This document shows, in pieces, positions 2,470 to 18,362 of a stretch of DNA of 64,000 nucleotides; positions within the stretch are counted from its first letter, which is position 1, and every line of letters starts with the position of its first letter. Origin of the DNA: a virus (taxonomy: Duplodnaviria; Heunggongvirae; Uroviricota; Caudoviricetes); IMG/VR virus record IMGVR_UViG_3300029828_000006, positions 1 to 64,000 of that record; one strand, given 5' to 3'. A model generated the notes under the pieces. The model did not search any database. It saw nothing but the letters and a program-made list of their open reading frames with translations, and was not told the origin of the DNA. Made by a program: the position numbers and the translations under genes.

Positions 2470-2859
2470 ATGGGCTTCCCTTCTCCTGCGGCGGATTATG
2501 TTGAAAGCCGAATTTCTCTTGATCAGCAGATAATTAGACATCCATCAGCAACCTACTTCATGCGGGCAGCTGATAGCCATCACCGTGAGGGAATATTGCA
2601 GGGTGCTTTGCTGGTGGTTGATTCTTCGCTTACTCCAGTTGATGGTTCGCTGCTTGTGTGCGCTATGGAGGGTGAATATCGCATAAAGAGATACAGGAAG
2701 TATCCGCGCCAGCACCTGGAGGATTTAAGCACCGGGAAGAAAGAGGCGTTACCAGTAGATGACGATGGTTACACGGGTAGTAATGCTGTTTTTGGTGTGA
2801 TCACTCATGTCATCAATGATGCCCGAAGTGGGGAATTTGATGATTGTCCGGTCATTTAA
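2470..2859 (+). CDS. humD: HumD, UmuD'-like translesion-synthesis accessory protein
   Basis: Translation aligns with UmuD core (GFPSPAADY, HPSATYF, VFGVITHVI); preceded by LexA box. Confidence 0.8.
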   Translation: MGFPSPAADYVESRISLDQQIIRHPSATYFMRAADSHHREGILQGALLVVDSSLTPVDGSLLVCAMEGEYRIKRYRKYPRQHLEDLSTGKKEALPVDDDGYTGSNAVFGVITHVINDARSGEFDDCPVI

Positions 2860-2931
2860 GCTGCAAAGTGCTGGTGCTTTATGCCTGTGAAGTTTATAAT
2901 TGTGTACACATAACGAGTACACGAGGTGTTT

Positions 2932-3153
2932 ATGCAATCCATTAACTTCCGTACCGCGCGCGGCAACCTTTCTGAAGTGCTCAACAATGTTGAAGCCGGG
3001 GAAGAGGTTGAAATCACCCGCAGAGGCCGTGAGTCAGCAGTAATTGTCAGCAAGGCTACTTTCGAAGCCTACAAAAAAGCGGCGCTGGATGCTGAATTTG
3101 CATCCCTGTTTGACACCCTGGACTCCACCAACAAGGAACTGGTTAACCGATAA
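2932..3153 (+). CDS. phd: Phd antitoxin
   Basis: 73 aa [34 protein letters not shown]... matches recalled P1 Phd; stop overlaps doc start (TAATG). Confidence 0.9.
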
Positions 3154-3533
3154 TGAGGCATATATCACCGGAAGAACTTATTGCGCTTCATGATGCGAAT
3201 ATAAACCGCTACGGCGGCCTGCCGGGAATGTCAGATCCGGGTAGGGCAGAGGCCATTATCGGGAGAGTTCAGGCCAGAGTTGCCTACGAAGAGATCACCG
3301 ACCTTTTCGAAGTCTCCGCCACCTACCTGGTGGCTACAGCGAGAGGGCATATATTCAATGATGCCAATAAGCGTACCGCGCTAAACAGTGCGCTGTTATT
3401 TCTACGCCGTAACGGGGTGCAGGTATTTGATTCACCTGAACTGGCAGACCTTACCGTAGGGGCTGCGACCGGAGAGATATCTGTATCTTCTGTCGCCGAC
3501 ACGTTACGTAGATTGTATGGTTCCGCGGAGTAG
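3153..3533 (+). CDS. doc: Doc toxin (Fic-fold kinase)
   Basis: 126 aa product matches recalled P1 Doc; coupled to phd. Confidence 0.9.
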
Positions 3534-3537
3534 ATTA

Positions 3538-3735
3538 ATGGCACGTAGATACAACAAATTGTCCCGTGAAGCGTTAAAGATGCTTCTTGATGGCGTGAGT
3601 CGCCGCGAGGTAAAGCAATACCTGATTGGTAAGCAAATTGGCGCCAGGACCGCTATTGCTGTGTTATGCCGTCAGGAAATGGTTGTGCTTAAACAGAGAA
3701 TGCTTGGTAGCAGACAAAGTGCTTCCAGTATTTGA
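3538..3735 (+). CDS. small basic protein (65 aa), possible DNA-binding
   Basis: ATG just after doc stop; followed by terminator at 3739-3769. Confidence 0.3.
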   Translation: MARRYNKLSREALKMLLDGVSRREVKQYLIGKQIGARTAIAVLCRQEMVVLKQRMLGSRQSASSI

Positions 3736-8032: not shown

Positions 8033-9070
8033 ATGAGTAAGAAGTCGATCGAGAAAGAGTACAAACGGTTCCTGCAAACCGCTGAACGGTGGAAAGAGCT
8101 GGTGGTCGCAAACTCTGTTTTCCATGATACCAGTTATGCTGGCGAGGAATTCCGCCATGTTGCATTAACGCATGACCAAAACATATTAGAAGAAGCTGAA
8201 AAATGTCTTGCTGAATGGAAAGCCTTCGTTGACATGTGCCGCGATGCCGACGGCAAAGCGTCGAACATTGTTGAGTCTGTATATTCTCCGATCCCATTCA
8301 TCATTGAGGACACCAATCAAAGCACGCATGTCGTTGTGCAAAGCGCTACAACAACACGTACATTTACACGTGAACAATTGCTAAAAAAATACGACAAAAT
8401 CATAAAGAAAAGCCTTAAAAATAGGGTTTTTTCTCAAATCGTAGGTGATCTTGAAGAAGAACAGCGCTTCTTTGAAGCTGAGCCTGAAGGCGAGATCTAC
8501 CGGGCGCGTAAAGAGGCATATACAGATGTTGTGCTGACAACAAACATCGAAGGCAGCAATGCCCTTTCTCGCTTTAGAGTTGGCGCACATGGTGCATTGG
8601 TTTTCGCAAGACTACCGAAGACAACGATCCCCGTTGTCAATAATGTTGGTGAACGCCGGAGCATTACAATTTATTCTGGCGTCGAATCGGTACCTTGCAG
8701 CCTTCTCGGCGATTTTAACTTATATCGTGTTCGTGACCTGGAAAAACACCAGCCAAGCTATGTTGCGAAGTCGTACATCTTAAGGAACATCGATATTCGC
8801 AATGAAAGCCTTAAGCAGAAATCCGCTAAGATGCTGGAGGATGCCGATCCGGCTATTCGCCATATCATTGAGCGTAAGATACGTACATCACGTGAAGCAA
8901 TGGCAAGGCTGGATAAAATGGATCTGGAATTGTTAGACGTAATGATGGCCTCTGGAGACGACCTGACCGGCATTAAACTGAATGAAGCTCGTAAAAAATA
9001 CGGCAAAGCAATCGAAGAACGTTACGGATACACATTCCCCCAAACGCAGTACGCCGCGAAGCTCTGGTAA
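8033..9070 (+). CDS. hypothetical protein (345 aa) at the c1 position; candidate immunity repressor
   Basis: Convergent with pacB between pacB and lox as c1 is in P1; operator-like motif 14 nt upstream; function positional only. Confidence 0.35.
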   Translation: MSKKSIEKEYKRFLQTAERWKELVVANSVFHDTSYAGEEFRHVALTHDQNILEEAEKCLAEWKAFVDMCRDADGKASNIVESVYSPIPFIIEDTNQSTHVVVQSATTTRTFTREQLLKKYDKIIKKSLKNRVFSQIVGDLEEEQRFFEAEPEGEIYRARKEAYTDVVLTTNIEGSNALSRFRVGAHGALVFARLPKTTIPVVNNVGERRSITIYSGVESVPCSLLGDFNLYRVRDLEKHQPSYVAKSYILRNIDIRNESLKQKSAKMLEDADPAIRHIIERKIRTSREAMARLDKMDLELLDVMMASGDDLTGIKLNEARKKYGKAIEERYGYTFPQTQYAAKLW

Positions 9071-14683: not shown

Positions 14684-14950
14684 TGGTTATCCCTCAATAA
14701 ACATGACGTATTTATTAGGTTGCGGTGCCTGGTGCCTCCAGGTGACGTTAACCAGTTAACAATTAACGCCGGGATGTTTGACTTAACCACTAAGGAGGAT
14801 TGTTTTAACTGTTCCGCGTGCGCATAGCCGCATTCACCGCAATGGTAAGAGCACTTGGCTGGCTGGGCGGCGATGACGCCTGTACGCATTTGGTGATCCG
14901 GTTCTGCTTCCGGCATTCGCTTAATTAGCCAAATACTCTTAACGTTGCAC

Positions 14951-15037
14951 TGGCGGAGAGTAATGGAATCGAACCATCATCGCTTGCGCAATGGGACGGT
15001 TTTCAAGACCGTTTGAGCACCATGCTCCCTACTCTCC
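14951..15037 (-). tRNA. tRNA-Ser (anticodon UGA)
   Basis: 87 nt type II tRNA; acceptor GGAGAGT/ACTCTCC, anticodon loop CTTGAAA, long variable arm, CCA. Confidence 0.8.
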
Positions 15038-15139
15038 AGTGATTGTGATGGTCGGTGCTGAACTCCGACACAGGGTTGTAGCAAGCCCCGCAAAGCGCGC
15101 ACTACTGTAGTTGCGGCACATCAGCCTGTGCATTCACCA

Positions 15140-15229
15140 CAATGTTGAGAACACTGGTTGTCACGCTGCAACGCAACATTTATTCGTAGATTGGGATATG
15201 ACCCCGTTACGCCAGTGTTCTCAACGTTG
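15140..15229. repeat. long-stem hairpin (18-bp stem, 54-nt loop)
   Basis: CAATGTTGAGAACACTGG ... CCAGTGTTCTCAACGTTG, one wobble; preceded by conserved leader. Confidence 0.5.
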
Positions 15230-15370
15230 TAGTGCCGGTTACGGTTCCGGCCAGGCCTCTTCCTCAACGGGGTGTTCTCCATACGGACTACCGTTTATTG
15301 GTCGTTCCTGCGGTTTATGTTGTGAAGCCAGATGCTTATCTTCTGGTTGCTTCAAAGAGCTGCACTTCAT

Positions 15371-15438
15371 CACAACGGTAAGAGCACTCGATGCATTTAA
15401 GCCAAGCCCCATAAGGGAGAATGCCCTTACCTGTTGTG
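15371..15438. repeat. imperfect long-stem hairpin, same family
   Basis: CACAACGGTAAG ... CTTACCTGTTGTG; shares leader and GCTTGGC with next unit. Confidence 0.45.
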
Positions 15439-15566
15439 TTGTGATGACCGGTGCTGATCTCCGGCTTGCGGTTATTTCAGACTCTCACGGGCGTTTATTT
15501 GCCCCGCCGAACAGCTCTTTTCCGCAATAGCTGCAATGTCTTTCGCGCATCAGCCTGCGCATTCAT

Positions 15567-15653
15567 CACAACGGTAAGGGTACTTCGTAGGGATTCGAAC
15601 CCTCTGCCAAGCACGGCGATCTCCGACGTCGCAAAATACCCTTACCTGTTGTG
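15567..15653 (-). ncRNA. tRNA-like element lacking a D-arm
   Basis: Minus strand has canonical T-arm AGGG-TTCGAAT-CCCT and a 4-bp/9-nt hairpin inside a 16-bp stem; abuts tRNA-Thr. Confidence 0.4.
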
Positions 15654-15654
15654 T

Positions 15655-15730
15655 TGGTGCCGGTTAACGGACTCGAACCGCTGACATCCTGCTTACAAGG
15701 CAGGCGCTCTACCAACTGAGCTAAACCGGC
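15655..15730 (-). tRNA. tRNA-Thr (anticodon UGU)
   Basis: 76 nt; acceptor GCCGGTT/AACCGGC, anticodon loop CTTGTAA, CCA. Confidence 0.9.
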
Positions 15731-15734
15731 AATT

Positions 15735-15821
15735 TGGTGGGGAGTGATGGAGTCGAACCACCCGAGTCGCAATGACAGTAGATTTACAGTCTACCCCGCT
15801 ACCCCTACGGACTAACTCCCC
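15735..15821 (-). tRNA. tRNA-Tyr (anticodon GUA)
   Basis: 87 nt type II; anticodon arm AGACTGTAAATCT as in E. coli tRNA-Tyr; CCA. Confidence 0.85.
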
Positions 15822-15826
15822 TGAAT

Positions 15827-15903
15827 TGGCGATGGTGGGTGGATTCGAACCACCGACCGACAGCTTAGAAGGCTGCTGCTCTATCCTACTGAGCTACACC
15901 ACC
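15827..15903 (-). tRNA. tRNA-Arg (anticodon UCU)
   Basis: 77 nt; anticodon loop CTTCTAA; CCA. Confidence 0.85.
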
Positions 15904-16094
15904 ACTGTGCCGGGTACGTCTCCGGCGAGGGCTTCCACCTCCGTATGCTTTTCGGCGCACCGCGCCCTGGCTGCAATTCAGTAACAGGGGATGCATAACC
16001 CTGGCTTCCAGCGTGATTAGCGCCTTCAGCATGACGGGATATACCCGTAACCAACAAACTTTCCCATATACCATCAAGCAATGGCTGTTACGCG

Positions 16095-16190
16095 GGAGGG
16101 ACGTAACAGGTAAGGGCGCTGACCAGAAAGACCTGACCCTTCTCATTCATCTGGTTAATCACACCAGCGCCCTTGCCTGTTATGCCTCCC
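16095..16190 (+). repeat. long hairpin (17-bp stem, GGGAGG/CCTCCC extension)
   Basis: AACAGGTAAGGGCGCTG ... CAGCGCCCTTGCCTGTT; shares ACAGGTAAGGG start with minus-strand units. Confidence 0.5.
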
Positions 16191-16408
16191 CGTTCCCTAA
16201 TACACAGACGGGGACACTCTGCGGTCGATTTTTTGACGGGGGACGACTCATACCCCGTGGCGTCAGGCTTCTTAGGCCGCTACCATCATCAGATCATCGT
16301 TTGCATTTACTTTAATGGTCGGGTTCTAAACCGCCGCAAAGTCGCTAACCATGACGAAAACCCTAAAAAAGCCCACCCGAAGATGGGCAAATACGCTACA
16401 TCTCACAC

Positions 16409-16485
16409 AAGAAAGAAGCCGACTGCCTGAGCTGGATTCACTTTCAAATGCCCGCTGAAAGGGATCACAAGTCGGCTTCTTTCTT
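16409..16485. repeat. perfect 16-bp stem hairpin with 45-nt loop
   Basis: AAGAAAGAAGCCGACT ... AGTCGGCTTCTTTCTT. Confidence 0.5.
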
Positions 16486-16702
16486 GATGCGGCACTCTCT
16501 CCGCCCGTCACCGCTCTGTCTCGGTTGTCGCGTTTGCCACGCCAGCCATAACGAGGTTTAAAGTCTTTTCACGTTCCCATCACTCGACTGCCGTCTGTGG
16601 CTGTTCGTTGCAGCGGGGGTGCCTCCCCCTGGGGATATCCCCGGCCTTACCCCATTCTTTCAAGACACAATGCAAGGCCACATCCGCATAGGTGCATTAC
16701 CG

Positions 16703-16767
16703 CAACATTAAGGAGACTCAGGGCAAAAGGTAACCGCCACAAAAATCCCTATGCCTCCTTAATGTTG
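16703..16767. repeat. perfect 13-bp stem hairpin with 39-nt loop
   Basis: CAACATTAAGGAG ... CTCCTTAATGTTG with leader-like GCATTACCGCAA before it. Confidence 0.5.
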
Positions 16768-16966
16768 AAGATGTGCATTGATGATTAGATGCAGCATGTA
16801 CCGTTACTCTCTGCCGGACCATCATCAATGAACACCTTAAAAAGACCTTCCGTGGCTCAACATGTATTGTCGTTTACTCCGCAAAGTGCTCTCTCTGAAA
16901 CCACTTTCCGCACTAAACCTGTTGAACTTTGGTCTGCTCGGTGCCAAAGCGTGCTCTTGGTTTACT

Positions 16967-16982
16967 ATACTTTTCTAACACT
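16967..16982 (-). promoter_or_regulatory. motif variant (rc GTGTTAGAAAAGTATA)
   Basis: In non-coding region; partial match. Confidence 0.25.
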
Positions 16983-16994
16983 TTAATTTGTTAA

Positions 16995-17070
16995 TTGCTG
17001 GTGGGCAAACAATAACCAATAAGTGACTATCAAGCCCAGCAAGCGAAACGTGGGTACCGCCCACCAGCAA
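16995..17070. repeat. perfect 12-bp stem hairpin with 52-nt loop
   Basis: TTGCTGGTGGGC ... GCCCACCAGCAA. Confidence 0.45.
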
Positions 17071-17122
17071 GGAAAATTCTATGTTAAGTCATCTTCACAA
17101 TCAATACATTCGAATTGTGATT

Positions 17123-17138
17123 TTAGATTTCTAACACA
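17123..17138 (-). promoter_or_regulatory. conserved motif (rc TGTGTTAGAAATCTAA)
   Basis: Immediately beyond the 3' end of 17139..18362. Confidence 0.4.
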
Positions 17139-18362
17139 TTATTTCCCATAAAGATCTTCTACACCCCCATTCTTCTTATCCCATTCGTTCGCCCATACCC
17201 GGCAAGCGTCAATGATTTCCTGACGACGATCTCCTTGCATGAACGGAATGCTTTCATGGAAACAGCTTGGAATGCAGGCCACACTGAATACAGTATCAAA
17301 CTCCGTCTGCTTGATTGCCTCCAGCGTCTCCGGACGCATTTTTAATTCATCGATTGGCGCATCCTTAGAGTCCATAATCCGGCGATATAAGCGCGGAAAA
17401 TCCGTCTCCAGGTACGCCATAATTTTATCTGCGAGACATTCGTCTATGTCGGTATTCCAGTCCTTTTCGAAGCCCGGCAGGCGATAGTAAAGCGGCGTTC
17501 CCCATACCGATGGGATCACATCCATCGTTAACAGGCGATTAGTTCTGATTTGTTGATGGTAATTAGCCGTCAGCAGTGCTTCGCCACGCTGCCCAGTTTC
17601 CGCAACCAGGCCGTGCGGATACTCATGGATGTAGGCAATGGCATCCCTTCCATCATACATAAGTGGAAATGTCTCTGGTCTTTGTCCCATGCCACAAGCA
17701 CGGTTCAGATCGTGACCAAGCTGTGAGCACTCTCGCTTTAATGTTTCGATAATGCTCTGCGCTGTAGCCAACTTTTTACGCAGTGTGACGCCTTCGCCTT
17801 GATAATCAATGCATTGCTGATTGAGCTTGGTTAAACGCTCTTTTAGTTCCCGGCGCTCTCTTTTCAGCGTGCGGTTATCCTTCTCCGCAACATCCAGCCG
17901 CTTTGTCAGGCTGGGCGGATAGTCTTTTTTGTAACGGTTCAAATCGGCTTCGGCAGATTTACGCAGTGTATTTGCCTGTTCAAGACGCGCTTCCAGATTG
18001 CCGATCTCATTACGCATATTCGCGGCAAATTGATTAACTGCATCGCCCAGGCTTTCAACTGTCGCTGATACGCCTGTGACTTGTGAAAAACGGATCAAGC
18101 CATCATTAACGGCTTGTTGGTATTCCTCAAACTGATCCACCAGCTTATTGTAATCAACTGCCCCATCATCAAGCAGCTTGTTGATTTCCGCCACCAGGTT
18201 ATCTGTAGTGGCAATGACACTCTCGTGCAGTCGCTTTGACAGGTCATCTCCCGGATTCCGTTTCTGTATAAGAGCGATTTGTGTGCGCAGCGTTTCAATT
18301 GCTGTCGAGATAATTTCCAGATTAGAAGTATCAGTGTGTTGACTCATTGCTGTTCCCGTCAC
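17139..18362 (-). CDS. hypothetical coiled-coil protein (407 aa)
   Basis: ATG with GGGA RBS; N-terminal 200 aa heptad-rich, C-terminal globular domain unrecognised; motif at both ends. Confidence 0.55.
   Translation of the reverse strand: MTGTAMSQHTDTSNLEIISTAIETLRTQIALIQKRNPGDDLSKRLHESVIATTDNLVAEINKLLDDGAVDYNKLVDQFEEYQQAVNDGLIRFSQVTGVSATVESLGDAVNQFAANMRNEIGNLEARLEQANTLRKSAEADLNRYKKDYPPSLTKRLDVAEKDNRTLKRERRELKERLTKLNQQCIDYQGEGVTLRKKLATAQSIIETLKRECSQLGHDLNRACGMGQRPETFPLMYDGRDAIAYIHEYPHGLVAETGQRGEALLTANYHQQIRTNRLLTMDVIPSVWGTPLYYRLPGFEKDWNTDIDECLADKIMAYLETDFPRLYRRIMDSKDAPIDELKMRPETLEAIKQTEFDTVFSVACIPSCFHESIPFMQGDRRQEIIDACRVWANEWDKKNGGVEDLYGK

What the first reader, a model, noticed from the sequence alone, without database searches (positions are those of the whole stretch)
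16095..17070. About 1.2 kb of protein-free DNA built from long perfect hairpins
At least four 12-17 bp perfect stems with 39-52 nt loops occur between the tRNA array and the next gene. The first begins with ACAGGTAAGGG, the same 5' arm start as the minus-strand units in the tRNA array but on the opposite strand. No ORF here has a credible RBS. This density of long stems is not explained by terminators.
Basis: seen in the sequence. Interest (0 to 1): 0.75.

Follow-up and report, generated by a model that had tools for sequence, protein, structure and literature searches.

The report
Structured phage leader with tmRNA-like module
The hairpin-rich, protein-free stretch is the structured RNA leader of a repressor-controlled phage operon that carries tRNA genes, and its most conserved piece looks like the tag-encoding half of a ribosome-rescue RNA (tmRNA) without the tRNA-like half, a module also found in P1, Klebsiella phage-plasmids and lambda-like prophages.

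Summary
The hairpins are real: there are 5 perfect inverted repeats of at least 10 bp, against 0.04 expected. The 1.2-kb interval carries no annotated gene in D6 or in 99 complete E. coli plasmids.

The window is a D6-type (P1-like) phage-plasmid. The interval is the leader of the ban/tRNA operon homologue and is read on the minus strand. Compensatory changes, a large excess of G·U over A·C pairs, and a 40 kcal/mol strand difference all point to RNA stems on that strand.

The leader is a mosaic of exchangeable modules:
- **17144-16365:** a conserved promoter between two repressor-operator-like boxes, a 5'-terminal hairpin, five D6-specific hairpin modules and a terminator.
- **16361-16187:**
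- **16191-16095:** a long hairpin of the family that also punctuates the tRNA array.

The near-invariant module has a tmRNA-type resume context and a 10-codon tag frame, (A)NDDLMMVAA-stop. Its stop codon lies in a hairpin loop, and two covariation-supported pseudoknots follow. I found no tRNA-like domain.

Copies occur in P1, a Klebsiella plasmid, IMG/VR phage contigs and lambdoid late leaders, and any nearby tRNA genes are on the same strand. The function is unknown and no transcript data were examined.

The parts
17128..17136 (-). Upstream operator-like box OpA (TGTTAGAAA), a candidate D6-type C1 repressor site
   Evidence: The 9-mer occurs 9 times in the window against 0.6 expected. One copy lies 28 nt upstream of the C1-like repressor gene at 8033-9070. 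By my own comparison its context matches the P1 operator consensus at 11 of 17 positions (P1 operators read). Binding is inferred.
17076..17104 (-). Sigma-70 promoter-like site, TTGATT-17-TAGAAT, with the predicted start at about 17070-17068
   Evidence: Both hexamers are essentially invariant in 20 D6-type sequences whose flanks diverge (A2). Not tested experimentally.
16995..17070 (-). Hairpin I10: 12-bp perfect stem and 52-nt interior, sitting at the predicted 5' end of the transcript
   Evidence: Nine pairs are invariant. The pair next to the interior switches C-G to G-C in the MIN14 lineage. A role as a 5'-end stabiliser is inferred.
16972..16980 (-). Second operator-like box OpB (TGTTAGAAA), 156 bp from OpA
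   Evidence: (repeat D7).
16842..16959 (-). Module Ma: two smaller hairpins
   Evidence: RNAalifold on A2: one pair switches A-U to G-C in 7 sequences, and several pairs show G-C to G-U changes.
16765..16841 (-). Hairpin I4
   Evidence: All one-sided changes keep pairing in the minus sense, for example G-U/A-U 13:7 and C-G/U-G 13:7.
16703..16767 (-). Hairpin I3: 13-bp perfect core, with a 39-bp interior that is inverted in some relatives
   Evidence: Two pairs carry double compensatory changes (A-U to G-C and G-C to A-U, 5 sequences each). The interior is reverse-complemented in L008 and L071.
16606..16702 (-). Near-invariant core: a few variable sites in 20 sequences. It contains two short G+C hairpins and a GGGGUAAGG motif
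   Evidence: Almost every column is invariant in A1 and A2, although the neighbouring modules are only about 82% identical between lineages. Function unknown.
16487..16605 (-). Module Mb
   Evidence: Present in D6-type loci and absent from the Shigella dysenteriae variant. An 81%-identical 113-nt copy lies in a Pantoea plasmid.
16408..16486 (-). Hairpin I5: 17-bp perfect stem with a 45-nt interior
   Evidence: Double compensatory changes: A-U to U-A (5 sequences) and G-C to A-U (5 sequences).
16365..16388 (-). Intrinsic terminator: 7-bp stem, UUCG loop, U6 tract. It marks the boundary between the variable modules and the leader shared with P1
   Evidence: Conserved in P1-type and D6-type loci. 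Termination efficiency is unknown.
16187..16361 (-). tmRNA-like module: a 5' leader starting GUUUUCGU, the tag frame, a stop-codon hairpin (16266-16278), pseudoknot A (about 16221-16259) and pseudoknot B (16187-16223)
   Evidence: Near-invariant in 63 unique P1/D6 sequences. Rfam tmRNA_permuted gives sub-threshold hits in every homologue: 22.8 bits here and 39 bits (E = 3e-6) in Klebsiella locus L133. For the double pseudoknot, 90.4% of cells are paired against 74.8% in shuffles, and 12 of 19 pairs carry two-sided changes, which 0 of 500 shuffles reach. Coordinates.
16272..16304 (-). Tag reading frame: GCA AAC GAT GAT CTG ATG ATG GTA GCG GCC TAA = (A)NDDLMMVAA-stop
   Evidence: Always 10 codons plus a stop in every phage-type copy. 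The variants are ANDDLMMAAA, ANDDVVLMAA, VVLIAA, VILMAA and VVLMVA. Six of 10 variable sites are third codon positions, and the final Ala codon uses all four synonymous forms. I saw no in-frame ATG, GTG or TTG between an upstream in-frame UAG and the GCA codon (my reading of the sequence).
16095..16191 (-). Hairpin I1: a U-type long hairpin (ACAGGYAAGGG...CCCUUACCUGU) with an inner hairpin CUGG-UGUGAUUAA-CCAG
   Evidence: The same family occurs at 15573-15646, about 15376-15440 and 15135-15234. It also flanks the tmRNA-like module in lambdoid prophages.
15904..16094 (-). Spacer with small hairpins leading into tRNA-Arg (15827-15903), then tRNA-Tyr and tRNA-Thr
   Evidence: About 90% identical to the P1 sequence upstream of its first tRNA gene of the ban operon.

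Best explanation
The interval is the non-coding, highly structured 5' part of a minus-strand transcription unit. This unit is the D6-type counterpart of the C1-repressed ban/tRNA operon of phage P1.

Proposed sequence of events:
1. Transcription starts at a conserved sigma-70 promoter (17104-17076). The promoter lies between two repressor-operator-like boxes, so the RNA would be made on induction or infection.
2. The transcript opens with a 5'-terminal stem-loop (I10).
3. It runs through five D6-specific hairpin modules and reaches an intrinsic terminator (16388-16365).
4. Read-through continues into a tmRNA-derived module (16361-16187), a long hairpin (I1) and the tRNA array.

The stems are RNA helices. 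The 18-27-bp ones (I1, I3, I4, I5 and the tRNA-array units) most likely act as processing sites, of the size RNase III uses, and as stabilising elements. They would cut the polycistronic precursor into discrete stable RNAs and tRNAs.

The tmRNA-derived module corresponds to the coding piece of a two-piece tmRNA, from its UUCGAC-like region through the tag frame and two pseudoknots. It has lost the acceptor and T-arm parts. I think it most likely acts on the host trans-translation or translation machinery during lytic growth.

Shown here: no coding genes, structure and strand, covariation, the modular mosaic, homology to the P1 leader, tmRNA-like anatomy, and distribution alongside tRNA arrays.

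Inferred: repressor control, the transcription start, terminator read-through, RNase III processing, and any effect on trans-translation.
For: **Identity and context**
- 97.9% identical to phage D6. 15903-16391 is about 90% identical to P1, P7 and SJ46.
- In P1 that stretch lies between P1ban/Op72 and the operon's first tRNA gene, and is read on the strand that corresponds to the window's minus strand.

**Strand and RNA-level selection**
- Minimum free energy is -266.6 kcal/mol on the minus strand against -226.2 on the plus strand.
- The consensus fold is -208.5 against -167.2 kcal/mol, with 336 G·U cells against 15 A·C cells.
- 16 pairs carry double compensatory changes in 20 D6-type sequences.

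**Signals**
- A promoter and a terminator are found on the minus strand, and the promoter hexamers are conserved.
- The TGTTAGAAA box occurs 9 times against 0.6 expected. One copy sits directly upstream of the C1 homologue.

**Mosaic structure**
- 56 unique P1-type leaders carry a different ('dicF-like') module in the slot where D6-type leaders carry about 700 nt.
- Hybrid forms exist.

**tmRNA-like module**
-.
- Comparison with a genuine permuted phage tmRNA.
- Any tRNA genes within 3 kb are co-oriented: 105 of 119 P1/D6 loci and 34 of 69 other loci have same-strand tRNAs, and none has opposite-strand tRNAs.
- In lambdoid prophages the module lies between the Q antiterminator gene and the holin gene.
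Against: - No transcript data were available. The start site, terminator read-through and processing are all predictions.
- The operator assignment rests on over-representation, position and 11/17 similarity to the P1 operator. It is not based on binding data.
- No tRNA-like domain, acceptor partner or CCA end was found for the tag module. Canonical trans-translation from it is therefore not possible as it stands.
- The excess of third-position changes in the tag frame is modest: 6 of 10 sites, about p = 0.08 by my own binomial estimate.
- The first codons of the frame can pair with the 5' leader. Their conservation could therefore be structural.
- The interior of I3 is inverted in two relatives. 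This is a DNA-level event and shows that not every loop sequence matters.
- The shuffle control of the covariation test does not correct for relatedness of the sequences.
Confidence: 0.62

Rival explanations
1. The hairpins act at the DNA level, as cruciforms or single-strand DNA hairpins. They would serve as recombination or inversion sites, single-strand initiation signals or an origin-like element, and the RNA would be incidental.
For: The inverted repeats are long and perfect. The interior of hairpin I3 is exactly reverse-complemented in L008 and L071, so recombination or template switching between the arms does occur. Whole modules are swapped between lineages.
Against: Stems tolerate G·U but not A·C in the minus sense only, 336 against 15 cells. 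The minus-strand fold is 40 kcal/mol more stable. Many one-sided changes run through G·U intermediates. The interval lies inside a known transcription unit in P1. The two sequences with the inversion share a haplotype downstream of the hairpin, so it is probably one event, and it turns G·U pairs into A·C mismatches.
Confidence: 0.08
2. The interval is one large ornate non-coding RNA, functionally comparable to GOLLD or ROOL. Those are also phage-borne and lie next to tRNA genes. It would act as a single folded particle.
For: There is about 1.1 kb of strongly structured RNA (z = -6.6). It sits immediately upstream of a phage tRNA array and is conserved in a phage-plasmid lineage.
Against: Modules are gained, lost and exchanged independently: P1-type, D6-type, MIN14-type and Shigella dysenteriae-type leaders all differ. 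An intrinsic terminator splits the interval. Only local hairpins and pseudoknots show covariation. No Rfam match to GOLLD, ROOL or any large RNA family.
Confidence: 0.08
3. The tag module and the long hairpins are decaying remnants of tmRNA and tRNA genes and recombination scars. They would persist in a recombination hotspot and have no function of their own, apart from punctuating the tRNA precursor.
For: The tRNA-like domain is missing. Some long hairpins enclose tRNA T-arm fragments. The region is a mosaic. All tmRNA family scores are below the gathering threshold.
Against: The module is near-invariant across 63 unique P1/D6 sequences, while adjacent sequence varies. It is kept in unrelated phage types with compensatory changes in four helices. 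The frame stays at 10 codons despite two 6-nt indels between the two classes. Some phages give it its own consensus-like promoter.
Confidence: 0.15
4. The interval encodes one or more small proteins that annotation has missed.
For: Mechanical ORFs of 30-100 codons exist on both strands. Some GenBank records (SJ46, JL22) annotate hypothetical proteins over the P1-shared part.
Against: Nothing is annotated in D6, P1 or 99 PGAP-annotated plasmids. Conservation is either total or follows base-pairing rather than codon periodicity. The short ORF that starts in the loop of I1 changes frame between D6 and P1 (my reading).
Confidence: 0.03

Closest known systems
Two-piece (permuted) tmRNA, coding piece (Rfam RF04321, RF01850; a genuine phage example is locus L188)
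   Same: - Resume context UAAAU|GCAAACGAUGA.
- A 10-codon tag that starts ANDD and ends AA-stop.
- The stop codon lies in a small hairpin.
- An H-type pseudoknot follows after an A-rich linker.
- A UUCGAC-like motif lies upstream.
   Different: - No acceptor stem, T-arm or CCA end, and no acceptor piece nearby.
- No upstream pseudoknot was identified.
- The 5' leader can pair with the resume region.
- Scores are 22.8-39 bits against a gathering score of 47.
- It sits inside phage operon leaders next to tRNA arrays.
Mycobacteriophage DS6A tmRNA fragment, which is the tRNA-like domain only (Hudson, Lau and Williams 2014, PMC4131195)
   Same: A phage carries only one half of a tmRNA. That precedent is thought to interfere with host trans-translation by titrating SmpB.
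   Different: The retained half is the opposite one: here it is the mRNA-like domain plus pseudoknots. That survey of RefSeq plasmids and viruses reported no ssrA outside mycobacteriophages and Bacillus phage G, and listed nothing for P1.
Leader of the phage P1 ban operon (P1ban/Op72, the 'dicF-like region', then the tRNA-Asn and tRNA-Thr genes)
   Same: Homologous over 15903-16391 at about 90%. The order is the same: repressor-controlled promoter, RNA module, terminator, conserved leader, tRNAs, then tciA.
   Different: Between promoter and terminator P1 has about 215 nt with the 'dicF-like' module. This window has about 700 nt of unrelated hairpin modules and lacks the dicF-like module. Its operator-like boxes have a different sequence and are 156 bp apart, rather than overlapping as in P1.
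Late-operon leader ('moron' region) of lambdoid prophages, between Q/PR'/tR' and the lysis genes. This region is known to hold tRNA genes and sRNAs such as StxS, AgvB and the PasD/STnc100 family
   Same: It holds the same tmRNA-like module and the same ACAGGUAAGRGC long hairpins. The window also has an STnc100-like hit next to its tRNA array.
   Different: The control system differs (Q antitermination rather than the C1 repressor). The D6-specific modules at 16392-17070 have no chromosomal copies in 5426 E. coli genomes.
RNase III processing hairpins of polycistronic phage and rRNA precursors (for example the T7 early RNA sites)
   Same: Irregular stems of about 20 bp or more lie between functional RNAs in one precursor. 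Stem pairing is conserved while loop content is free.
   Different: Cleavage was not tested. Several stems enclose 40-50 nt of sub-structured interior rather than a small internal loop.

Membership tests
tmRNA (SsrA), one-piece or two-piece | A tRNA-like domain: 7-bp acceptor stem with G3·U70, T-arm and a 3' CCA end | tested here: not met
   ARAGORN finds no tmRNA in the window or in 20 or more homologous loci, yet it does call the control L188. No consistent CGAAAAC-type or NCCA partner lies within 3 kb.
tmRNA (SsrA), one-piece or two-piece | A resume codon (usually GCA) in a conserved context, followed by a short tag frame ending in hydrophobic residues plus AA and a stop | tested here: met
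   UAAAU|GCA AAC GAU GAU ... GCG GCC UAA. The frame is always 10 codons and ends MVAA, MAAA, LMAA or LIAA.
tmRNA (SsrA), one-piece or two-piece | Pseudoknots flanking the tag frame, with the stop codon in or near a hairpin | tested here: met
   Two H-type pseudoknots lie downstream, with compensatory changes in all four helices. The stop-codon hairpin covaries. No upstream pseudoknot was identified.
tmRNA (SsrA), one-piece or two-piece | Reaches the curated Rfam gathering score | tested here: not met
   RF04321 scores 22.8 bits in the window and 39 bits at best in homologues, against a gathering score of 47. There is no hit to RF00023.
tmRNA (SsrA), one-piece or two-piece | Alanyl charging, SmpB and EF-Tu binding, and tagging of stalled peptides | not testable with these tools
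   Needs biochemistry, or mass spectrometry for ...AANDDLMMVAA C-termini.
DicF sRNA | Match to the DicF covariance model or sequence | tested here: not met
   No Rfam DicF hit at E < 1 in the window or in P1. The P1 module annotated 'dicF-like' is absent from this window.
C1-repressed P1-type early operon leader | Homology and synteny with the P1 ban leader | tested here: met
   About 90% identity over 15903-16391, with the same downstream order of tRNAs, tciA and tciB.
C1-repressed P1-type early operon leader | A repressor operator at the promoter | tested here: inconclusive
   Over-represented boxes flank the promoter, one copy sits directly upstream of the C1 homologue, and the match to the P1 operator is 11/17. 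No binding data, and the boxes do not overlap the predicted hexamers.
Intrinsic terminators | A G+C-rich stem with a short loop, followed by a U tract | tested here: not met
   Only 16388..16365 fits. The long stems have 23-54 nt interiors and no U tract.
GOLLD / ROOL large phage RNAs | Match to the Rfam model, and one indivisible conserved architecture | tested here: not met
   No hit. The modules vary independently.
Dispersed palindromic repeats (REP, ERIC or MITE-type) | Many copies scattered in host chromosomes | tested here: not met
   16392-17075 has 0 chromosomal places in 5426 E. coli genomes. All 105 places are on plasmids.
Invertase-driven invertible DNA segment | Both orientations occur in the population, between inverted repeats recognised by a site-specific recombinase | tested here: inconclusive
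   Both orientations of the I3 interior exist, in 2 of 20 unique sequences. The two share a haplotype downstream of the hairpin. Resemblance to a recombinase site was not formally tested.
RNase III processing sites | About 20 bp or more of double-stranded RNA between mature RNAs, and cleavage that depends on rnc | not testable with these tools
   Stem lengths of 18-27 bp and positions between modules fit. Cleavage is untested.

The most novel reading that the evidence does not exclude
P1-like and D6-like phage-plasmids, a Klebsiella phage-plasmid and many lambdoid prophages share a dedicated tmRNA-derived RNA. It keeps a translatable degradation-tag frame and two pseudoknots but has no tRNA-like domain, and it is expressed with phage tRNA arrays during lytic growth.

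It would either supply an alternative tag through an unknown partner or entry route, or act as a decoy that reprograms host ribosome rescue. That could matter when tRNA-cleaving defences stall ribosomes.

This would be a previously unrecognised class of viral RNA that targets trans-translation, present in one of the most-studied phages.
Probability: 0.25. Interest if true: 0.85.

Novelty: new variant of a known kind. Interest (0 to 1): 0.68.

Why it matters
P1 and lambda-like phages are among the best-studied viruses, and their dependence on host tmRNA/SmpB has been a puzzle since the 1990s (recalled from my own knowledge, not checked here).

A conserved phage RNA that keeps the tag-encoding half of a tmRNA, next to phage tRNA genes, gives a concrete and testable link between phage tRNA arrays, ribosome rescue and possibly anti-defence.

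It also shows that operon 'leaders' in phage-plasmids are cassettes of exchangeable non-coding RNA modules shared with lambdoid late leaders. Standard annotation leaves all of them blank.

The module occurs in 660 of 5426 complete E. coli genomes.

Tried and rejected
- **TciA as an anchor.** A search of species-representative genomes with TciA gave 9 loci, none with the leader or tRNAs.
- **Rfam.** Searches of the window, P1, relatives and the D6-specific part alone gave only tRNAs, a sub-threshold STnc100 hit, the sub-threshold tmRNA_permuted hits and generic miRNA-hairpin noise.
- **Global alignment.** MAFFT plus RNAalifold across all classes of the tag module failed because of register shifts. 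I used a trimmed alignment with a hand-specified structure instead.
- **Helices near the resume codon.** The 5'-leader/resume helix and a long-range helix enclosing the frame gave ambiguous registers. I do not claim them beyond the CUUUG/CAAAG to UUAUG/CAUAA switch.
- **Acceptor-stem partner.** A search for a partner of the invariant 5' GUUUUCG gave nothing consistent. In many phages that heptamer directly follows a hairpin and may simply be a U tract.
- **The TGTTAGAAA box as a late promoter.** Rejected, because the P1 late-promoter -22 box looks different and the box positions match P1 C1-operator positions.
- **A small ORF behind the UGUGAUUAA loop.** Rejected, because it is not conserved between D6 and P1.
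- **Literature.**
  - The P1 genome paper is not held, and a title search did not return the D6 genome paper.
  - P1 transcriptome papers report gene-level data only.
  - The tag peptide strings appear in no held paper.
  - The Pas and anti-sRNA papers concern neighbouring sRNAs, not this module.
Full report
**What the window is.** Positions 15900-17140 are 97.9% identical to Escherichia phage D6, a P1-like phage-plasmid. Only 15903-16391 is shared, at about 90%, with P1, P7, SJ46 and their relatives. The gene order on the minus strand is pmgR, pmgS (17139-18347), the finding, a tRNA array, tciA, tciB. In P1 the shared piece is the leader of the C1-controlled ban operon. That leader runs from P1ban with operator Op72, through a 'dicF-like region', to the tRNA-Asn and tRNA-Thr genes and on to tciABC and ban. 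It is read on the strand equivalent to the window's minus strand.

**Checking the observation.**
- The interval holds 5 perfect repeats of at least 10 bp with loops of 3-60 nt, against 0.044 in 1000 dinucleotide shuffles. It holds 3 of at least 12 bp, against 0.002.
- No coding gene is annotated in D6, in P1's homologous part, in sampled PLSDB plasmids or in any of 99 RefSeq E. coli plasmids.
- The D6-specific sequence (16380-17140) occurs in 120 PLSDB plasmids and 99 of 5426 complete E. coli genomes, always on plasmids. It is not an assembly artefact and not a dispersed repeat.
- Only one stem is terminator-like, at 16388..16365 on the minus strand.
On the minus strand the first hairpin begins ACAGGCAAGGG, like the array units.

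**RNA, and on which strand.**
- As RNA, 16360-17075 folds to -266.6 kcal/mol on the minus strand (z = -6.6) and to -226.2 on the plus strand.
- I collected 112 IMG/VR loci with a conserved 32-mer, plus plasmids. This gave 79 unique upstream regions.
- In 20 D6-type sequences the consensus fold has 192 pairs, and 16 of them carry double compensatory changes in hairpins I3, I5 and module Ma. Most one-sided changes run G-C or A-U to G-U in the minus sense.
- Over the consensus structure there are 336 G·U cells against 15 A·C cells. The minus-sense consensus is 41 kcal/mol better than the plus-sense one. The structure was predicted on that strand, so this count leans towards it. The single-sequence energies are the unbiased part.

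**Signals.**
- A sigma-70-like promoter (TTGATT-17-TAGAAT, 17104-17076, minus strand) has hexamers that stay essentially invariant while the flanks diverge.
- The predicted start falls at the foot of hairpin I10, which would make it a 5'-terminal stem-loop. From established work on the ompA 5' stem-loop I infer that it protects against 5'-end-dependent decay.
- The 9-mer TGTTAGAAA flanks this promoter at 17128 and 16972. It occurs 9 times in the window against 0.6 expected.
- One copy lies 28 nt upstream of the gene that D6 annotates as the C1-like repressor.
- Its context matches the P1 C1 operator at 11 of 17 positions by my comparison. It does not resemble the P1 late-promoter -22 box.
- Repressor control is therefore inferred, not shown.

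**A mosaic of modules.** Between promoter and terminator, the architectures differ:
- 56 unique P1-type loci carry about 215 nt with the 'dicF-like' module.
- D6-type loci carry about 700 nt in the order I10, Ma, I4, I3, core, Mb, I5.
- MIN14-type loci carry the D6 set plus the dicF-like module.
- A Shigella dysenteriae plasmid lacks Mb and I5.
- A Pantoea plasmid holds an isolated copy of Mb.

The core (16606-16702) is nearly invariant across lineages whose neighbouring modules are only about 82% identical. None of these modules matches an Rfam family, and their individual functions remain unknown.

The interior of I3 is exactly inverted in two sequences that share a haplotype downstream of the hairpin. 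This is a DNA-level event, and it converts G·U pairs into mismatches.

- *Conservation.* Just downstream of the terminator, 16361-16187 is near-invariant in 63 unique P1/D6 sequences.
- *Tag frame.* It reads ...UAAAU GCA AAC GAU GAU CUG AUG AUG GUA GCG GCC UAA, that is (A)NDDLMMVAA-stop, at 16304-16272.
- *Rfam.* The permuted-tmRNA model hits this spot in every homologue: 22.8 bits here, and 39 bits (E = 3e-6) in a Klebsiella plasmid, against a gathering score of 47. The alignment falls on the resume-codon region and the end of the frame.
- *Other hosts.* Related copies occur in a 112-kb Klebsiella plasmid, in about 70 further IMG/VR phage contigs, and at 140 chromosomal places in E. coli. The two chromosomal places I inspected lie between the Q antiterminator gene and the holin gene of lambdoid prophages.
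- *Frame length.* Across all copies the frame is always 10 codons plus a stop. Two 6-nt indels between the two main classes compensate each other.
- *Frame variation.* Six of 10 variable sites are third positions, and the last Ala codon uses GCG, GCT, GCA and GCC. Amino-acid changes are conservative (V/I, M/I, A/V), apart from a single A-to-P change in one sequence. The stop codon always sits in a small covarying hairpin.
- *Structure.* Downstream lie two H-type pseudoknots. On 25 diverse copies, 19 pairs are 90.4% paired against 74.8% in shuffles. Twelve pairs carry two-sided changes, which 0 of 500 shuffles reach. The covariation score is 0.429 against 0.171, and slid controls stay at or below 0.151.
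- *Promoter.* Some phages place a consensus-like promoter directly in front of the module.

**Comparison with a real tmRNA, and the missing half.** A 184-kb IMG/VR contig (L188) carries a genuine permuted tmRNA. ARAGORN calls it, and RF04321 scores 115.8 bits. Its frame begins with the same five codons. By eye, it is followed by the same pseudoknot-after-A-rich-linker arrangement.

Against that model, the phage module starts at the UUCGAC-like motif, just after where the acceptor 5' strand would be.

I found no acceptor stem, T-arm, CCA end or separate acceptor piece. It therefore fails the defining feature of tmRNA membership and cannot perform canonical trans-translation alone.

An exhaustive published survey of RefSeq viruses and plasmids found ssrA only in mycobacteriophages and Bacillus phage G. 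That survey included a fragment in phage DS6A with only the tRNA-like domain, thought to titrate SmpB (PMC4131195). The tag strings are in no held paper. As far as I can tell, the module has not been described.

**The long hairpins.** I1 (16191-16095) belongs to a family with arms ACAGGYAAGRGC/GCYCUUACCKGU. Other members are at 15573-15646, about 15376-15440 and 15135-15234 in the tRNA array. The same hairpins flank the tag module in lambdoid leaders. The arms are conserved, the interiors are free, and some interiors hold T-arm fragments. With 18-27-bp stems placed between RNAs of one precursor, RNase III-type processing is the most economical reading, but it is untested.

**Association with tRNAs.** Within 3 kb of the tag module, 105 of 119 P1/D6 loci and 34 of 69 other loci have same-strand tRNA genes. 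None has an opposite-strand tRNA gene.

**Verdict.** The best explanation is a repressor-controlled, minus-strand, multi-module structured leader RNA. Within it, hairpins stabilise and punctuate the precursor, and one conserved module is a tmRNA derivative without a tRNA-like domain.

Function is the weak point. I rate a direct role in trans-translation at about 0.25. I rate 'ancestry only' (a remnant or punctuation element without a function of its own) at about 0.15.

The kind of thing is known (phage operon leaders, sRNA cassettes, tmRNA fragments in phages). This variant appears not to be.

Noticed in passing
window 16716-16754 (interior of hairpin I3, 16703-16767): The 39-bp interior between the 13-bp arms CAACATTAAGGAG/CTCCTTAATGTTG is exactly reverse-complemented in plasmid JS316 (L008) and IMG/VR locus L071. 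The two share a haplotype downstream of the hairpin, so this is probably one inversion event and not phase variation.
   Followed up: partly
window 6595, 8005, 16972, 17128, 18377, 19420, 29322, 30521, 61454: TGTTAGAAA occurs nine times against 0.6 expected, usually followed 2 nt later by TAnnnT. The positions parallel those of P1 C1 operators: upstream of the c1 homologue, upstream of pmgS, and in the ban-type leader. It is a candidate operator of the D6-type repressor.
   Followed up: partly
window 14721-14841 (-): A sub-threshold match to the Rfam sRNA STnc100 (40.1 bits against a gathering score of 47, E = 3e-6) lies just upstream of tciA. It recurs in P1 and in an E. marmotae plasmid. A 2026 preprint links STnc100 to the PasD sRNAs of lambdoid late regions.
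   Followed up: no
window 15038-15660 (-): Three long hairpin units lie between the tRNA genes (fold z = -6.2). Each is followed by a small GCGCAGGCUGAUGCGC-type hairpin and preceded by a CCGGAGAUCAGCACCGG hairpin. Unit 15573-15646 encloses a T-arm-like GGGUUCGAAUCCC. P1 annotates the ORFs upl and plp on the opposite strand in the corresponding interval, and these may be spurious.
   Followed up: partly
window 14951-15037 (-): ARAGORN calls tRNA-Ser(UGA) here. It scores best as tRNA-Sec in Rfam (45.1 bits against a gathering score of 47). The D6 annotators flagged the D6 counterpart as odd.
   Followed up: no
window 15655-15903 compared with D6 (L001 3854-4004): The tRNA complement differs from D6. 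The window has Thr, Tyr and Arg where D6 has Thr and Asn, although the flanks are about 98% identical. The array is a swap hotspot.
   Followed up: no
L188 10489-10911: A 184-kb IMG/VR phage contig carries a complete permuted (two-piece) tmRNA gene with the tag ANDDVYMVRAAA (ARAGORN call; RF04321 115.8 bits). I used it as a positive control.
   Followed up: yes
L133 about 2750-3560 (Klebsiella pneumoniae 112-kb plasmid): Downstream of its tag module lie three tRNA-like elements with canonical T-arms, and at least one has an acceptor stem and a GCCA end. ARAGORN calls no tRNA there. One element has a 14-nt 'anticodon' loop.
   Followed up: no
L134 786-1955 (E. coli IncY P1-like plasmid): A TnpB (RNA-guided endonuclease family) gene is inserted between dmt and the tag module. 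It replaces the usual promoter and dicF-like part of the leader.
   Followed up: no
L135 2925-3005 (lambdoid prophage late leader): The 3' arm of the long hairpin upstream of the tag module can instead pair with a downstream segment to form a terminator-like hairpin followed by UUUUCG. This is an attenuator-like alternative structure.
   Followed up: no
window 16140-16160 and 16194-16207; L135 and L133 pseudoknot B loop: The loop motif UGUGAUUAA(UAA) is conserved in pseudoknot B of the lambdoid and Klebsiella copies. In P1/D6 it appears in the inner hairpin of I1 (CUGG-UGUGAUUAA-CCAG), and I5 has UGUGAU. Its partner is unknown.
   Followed up: no
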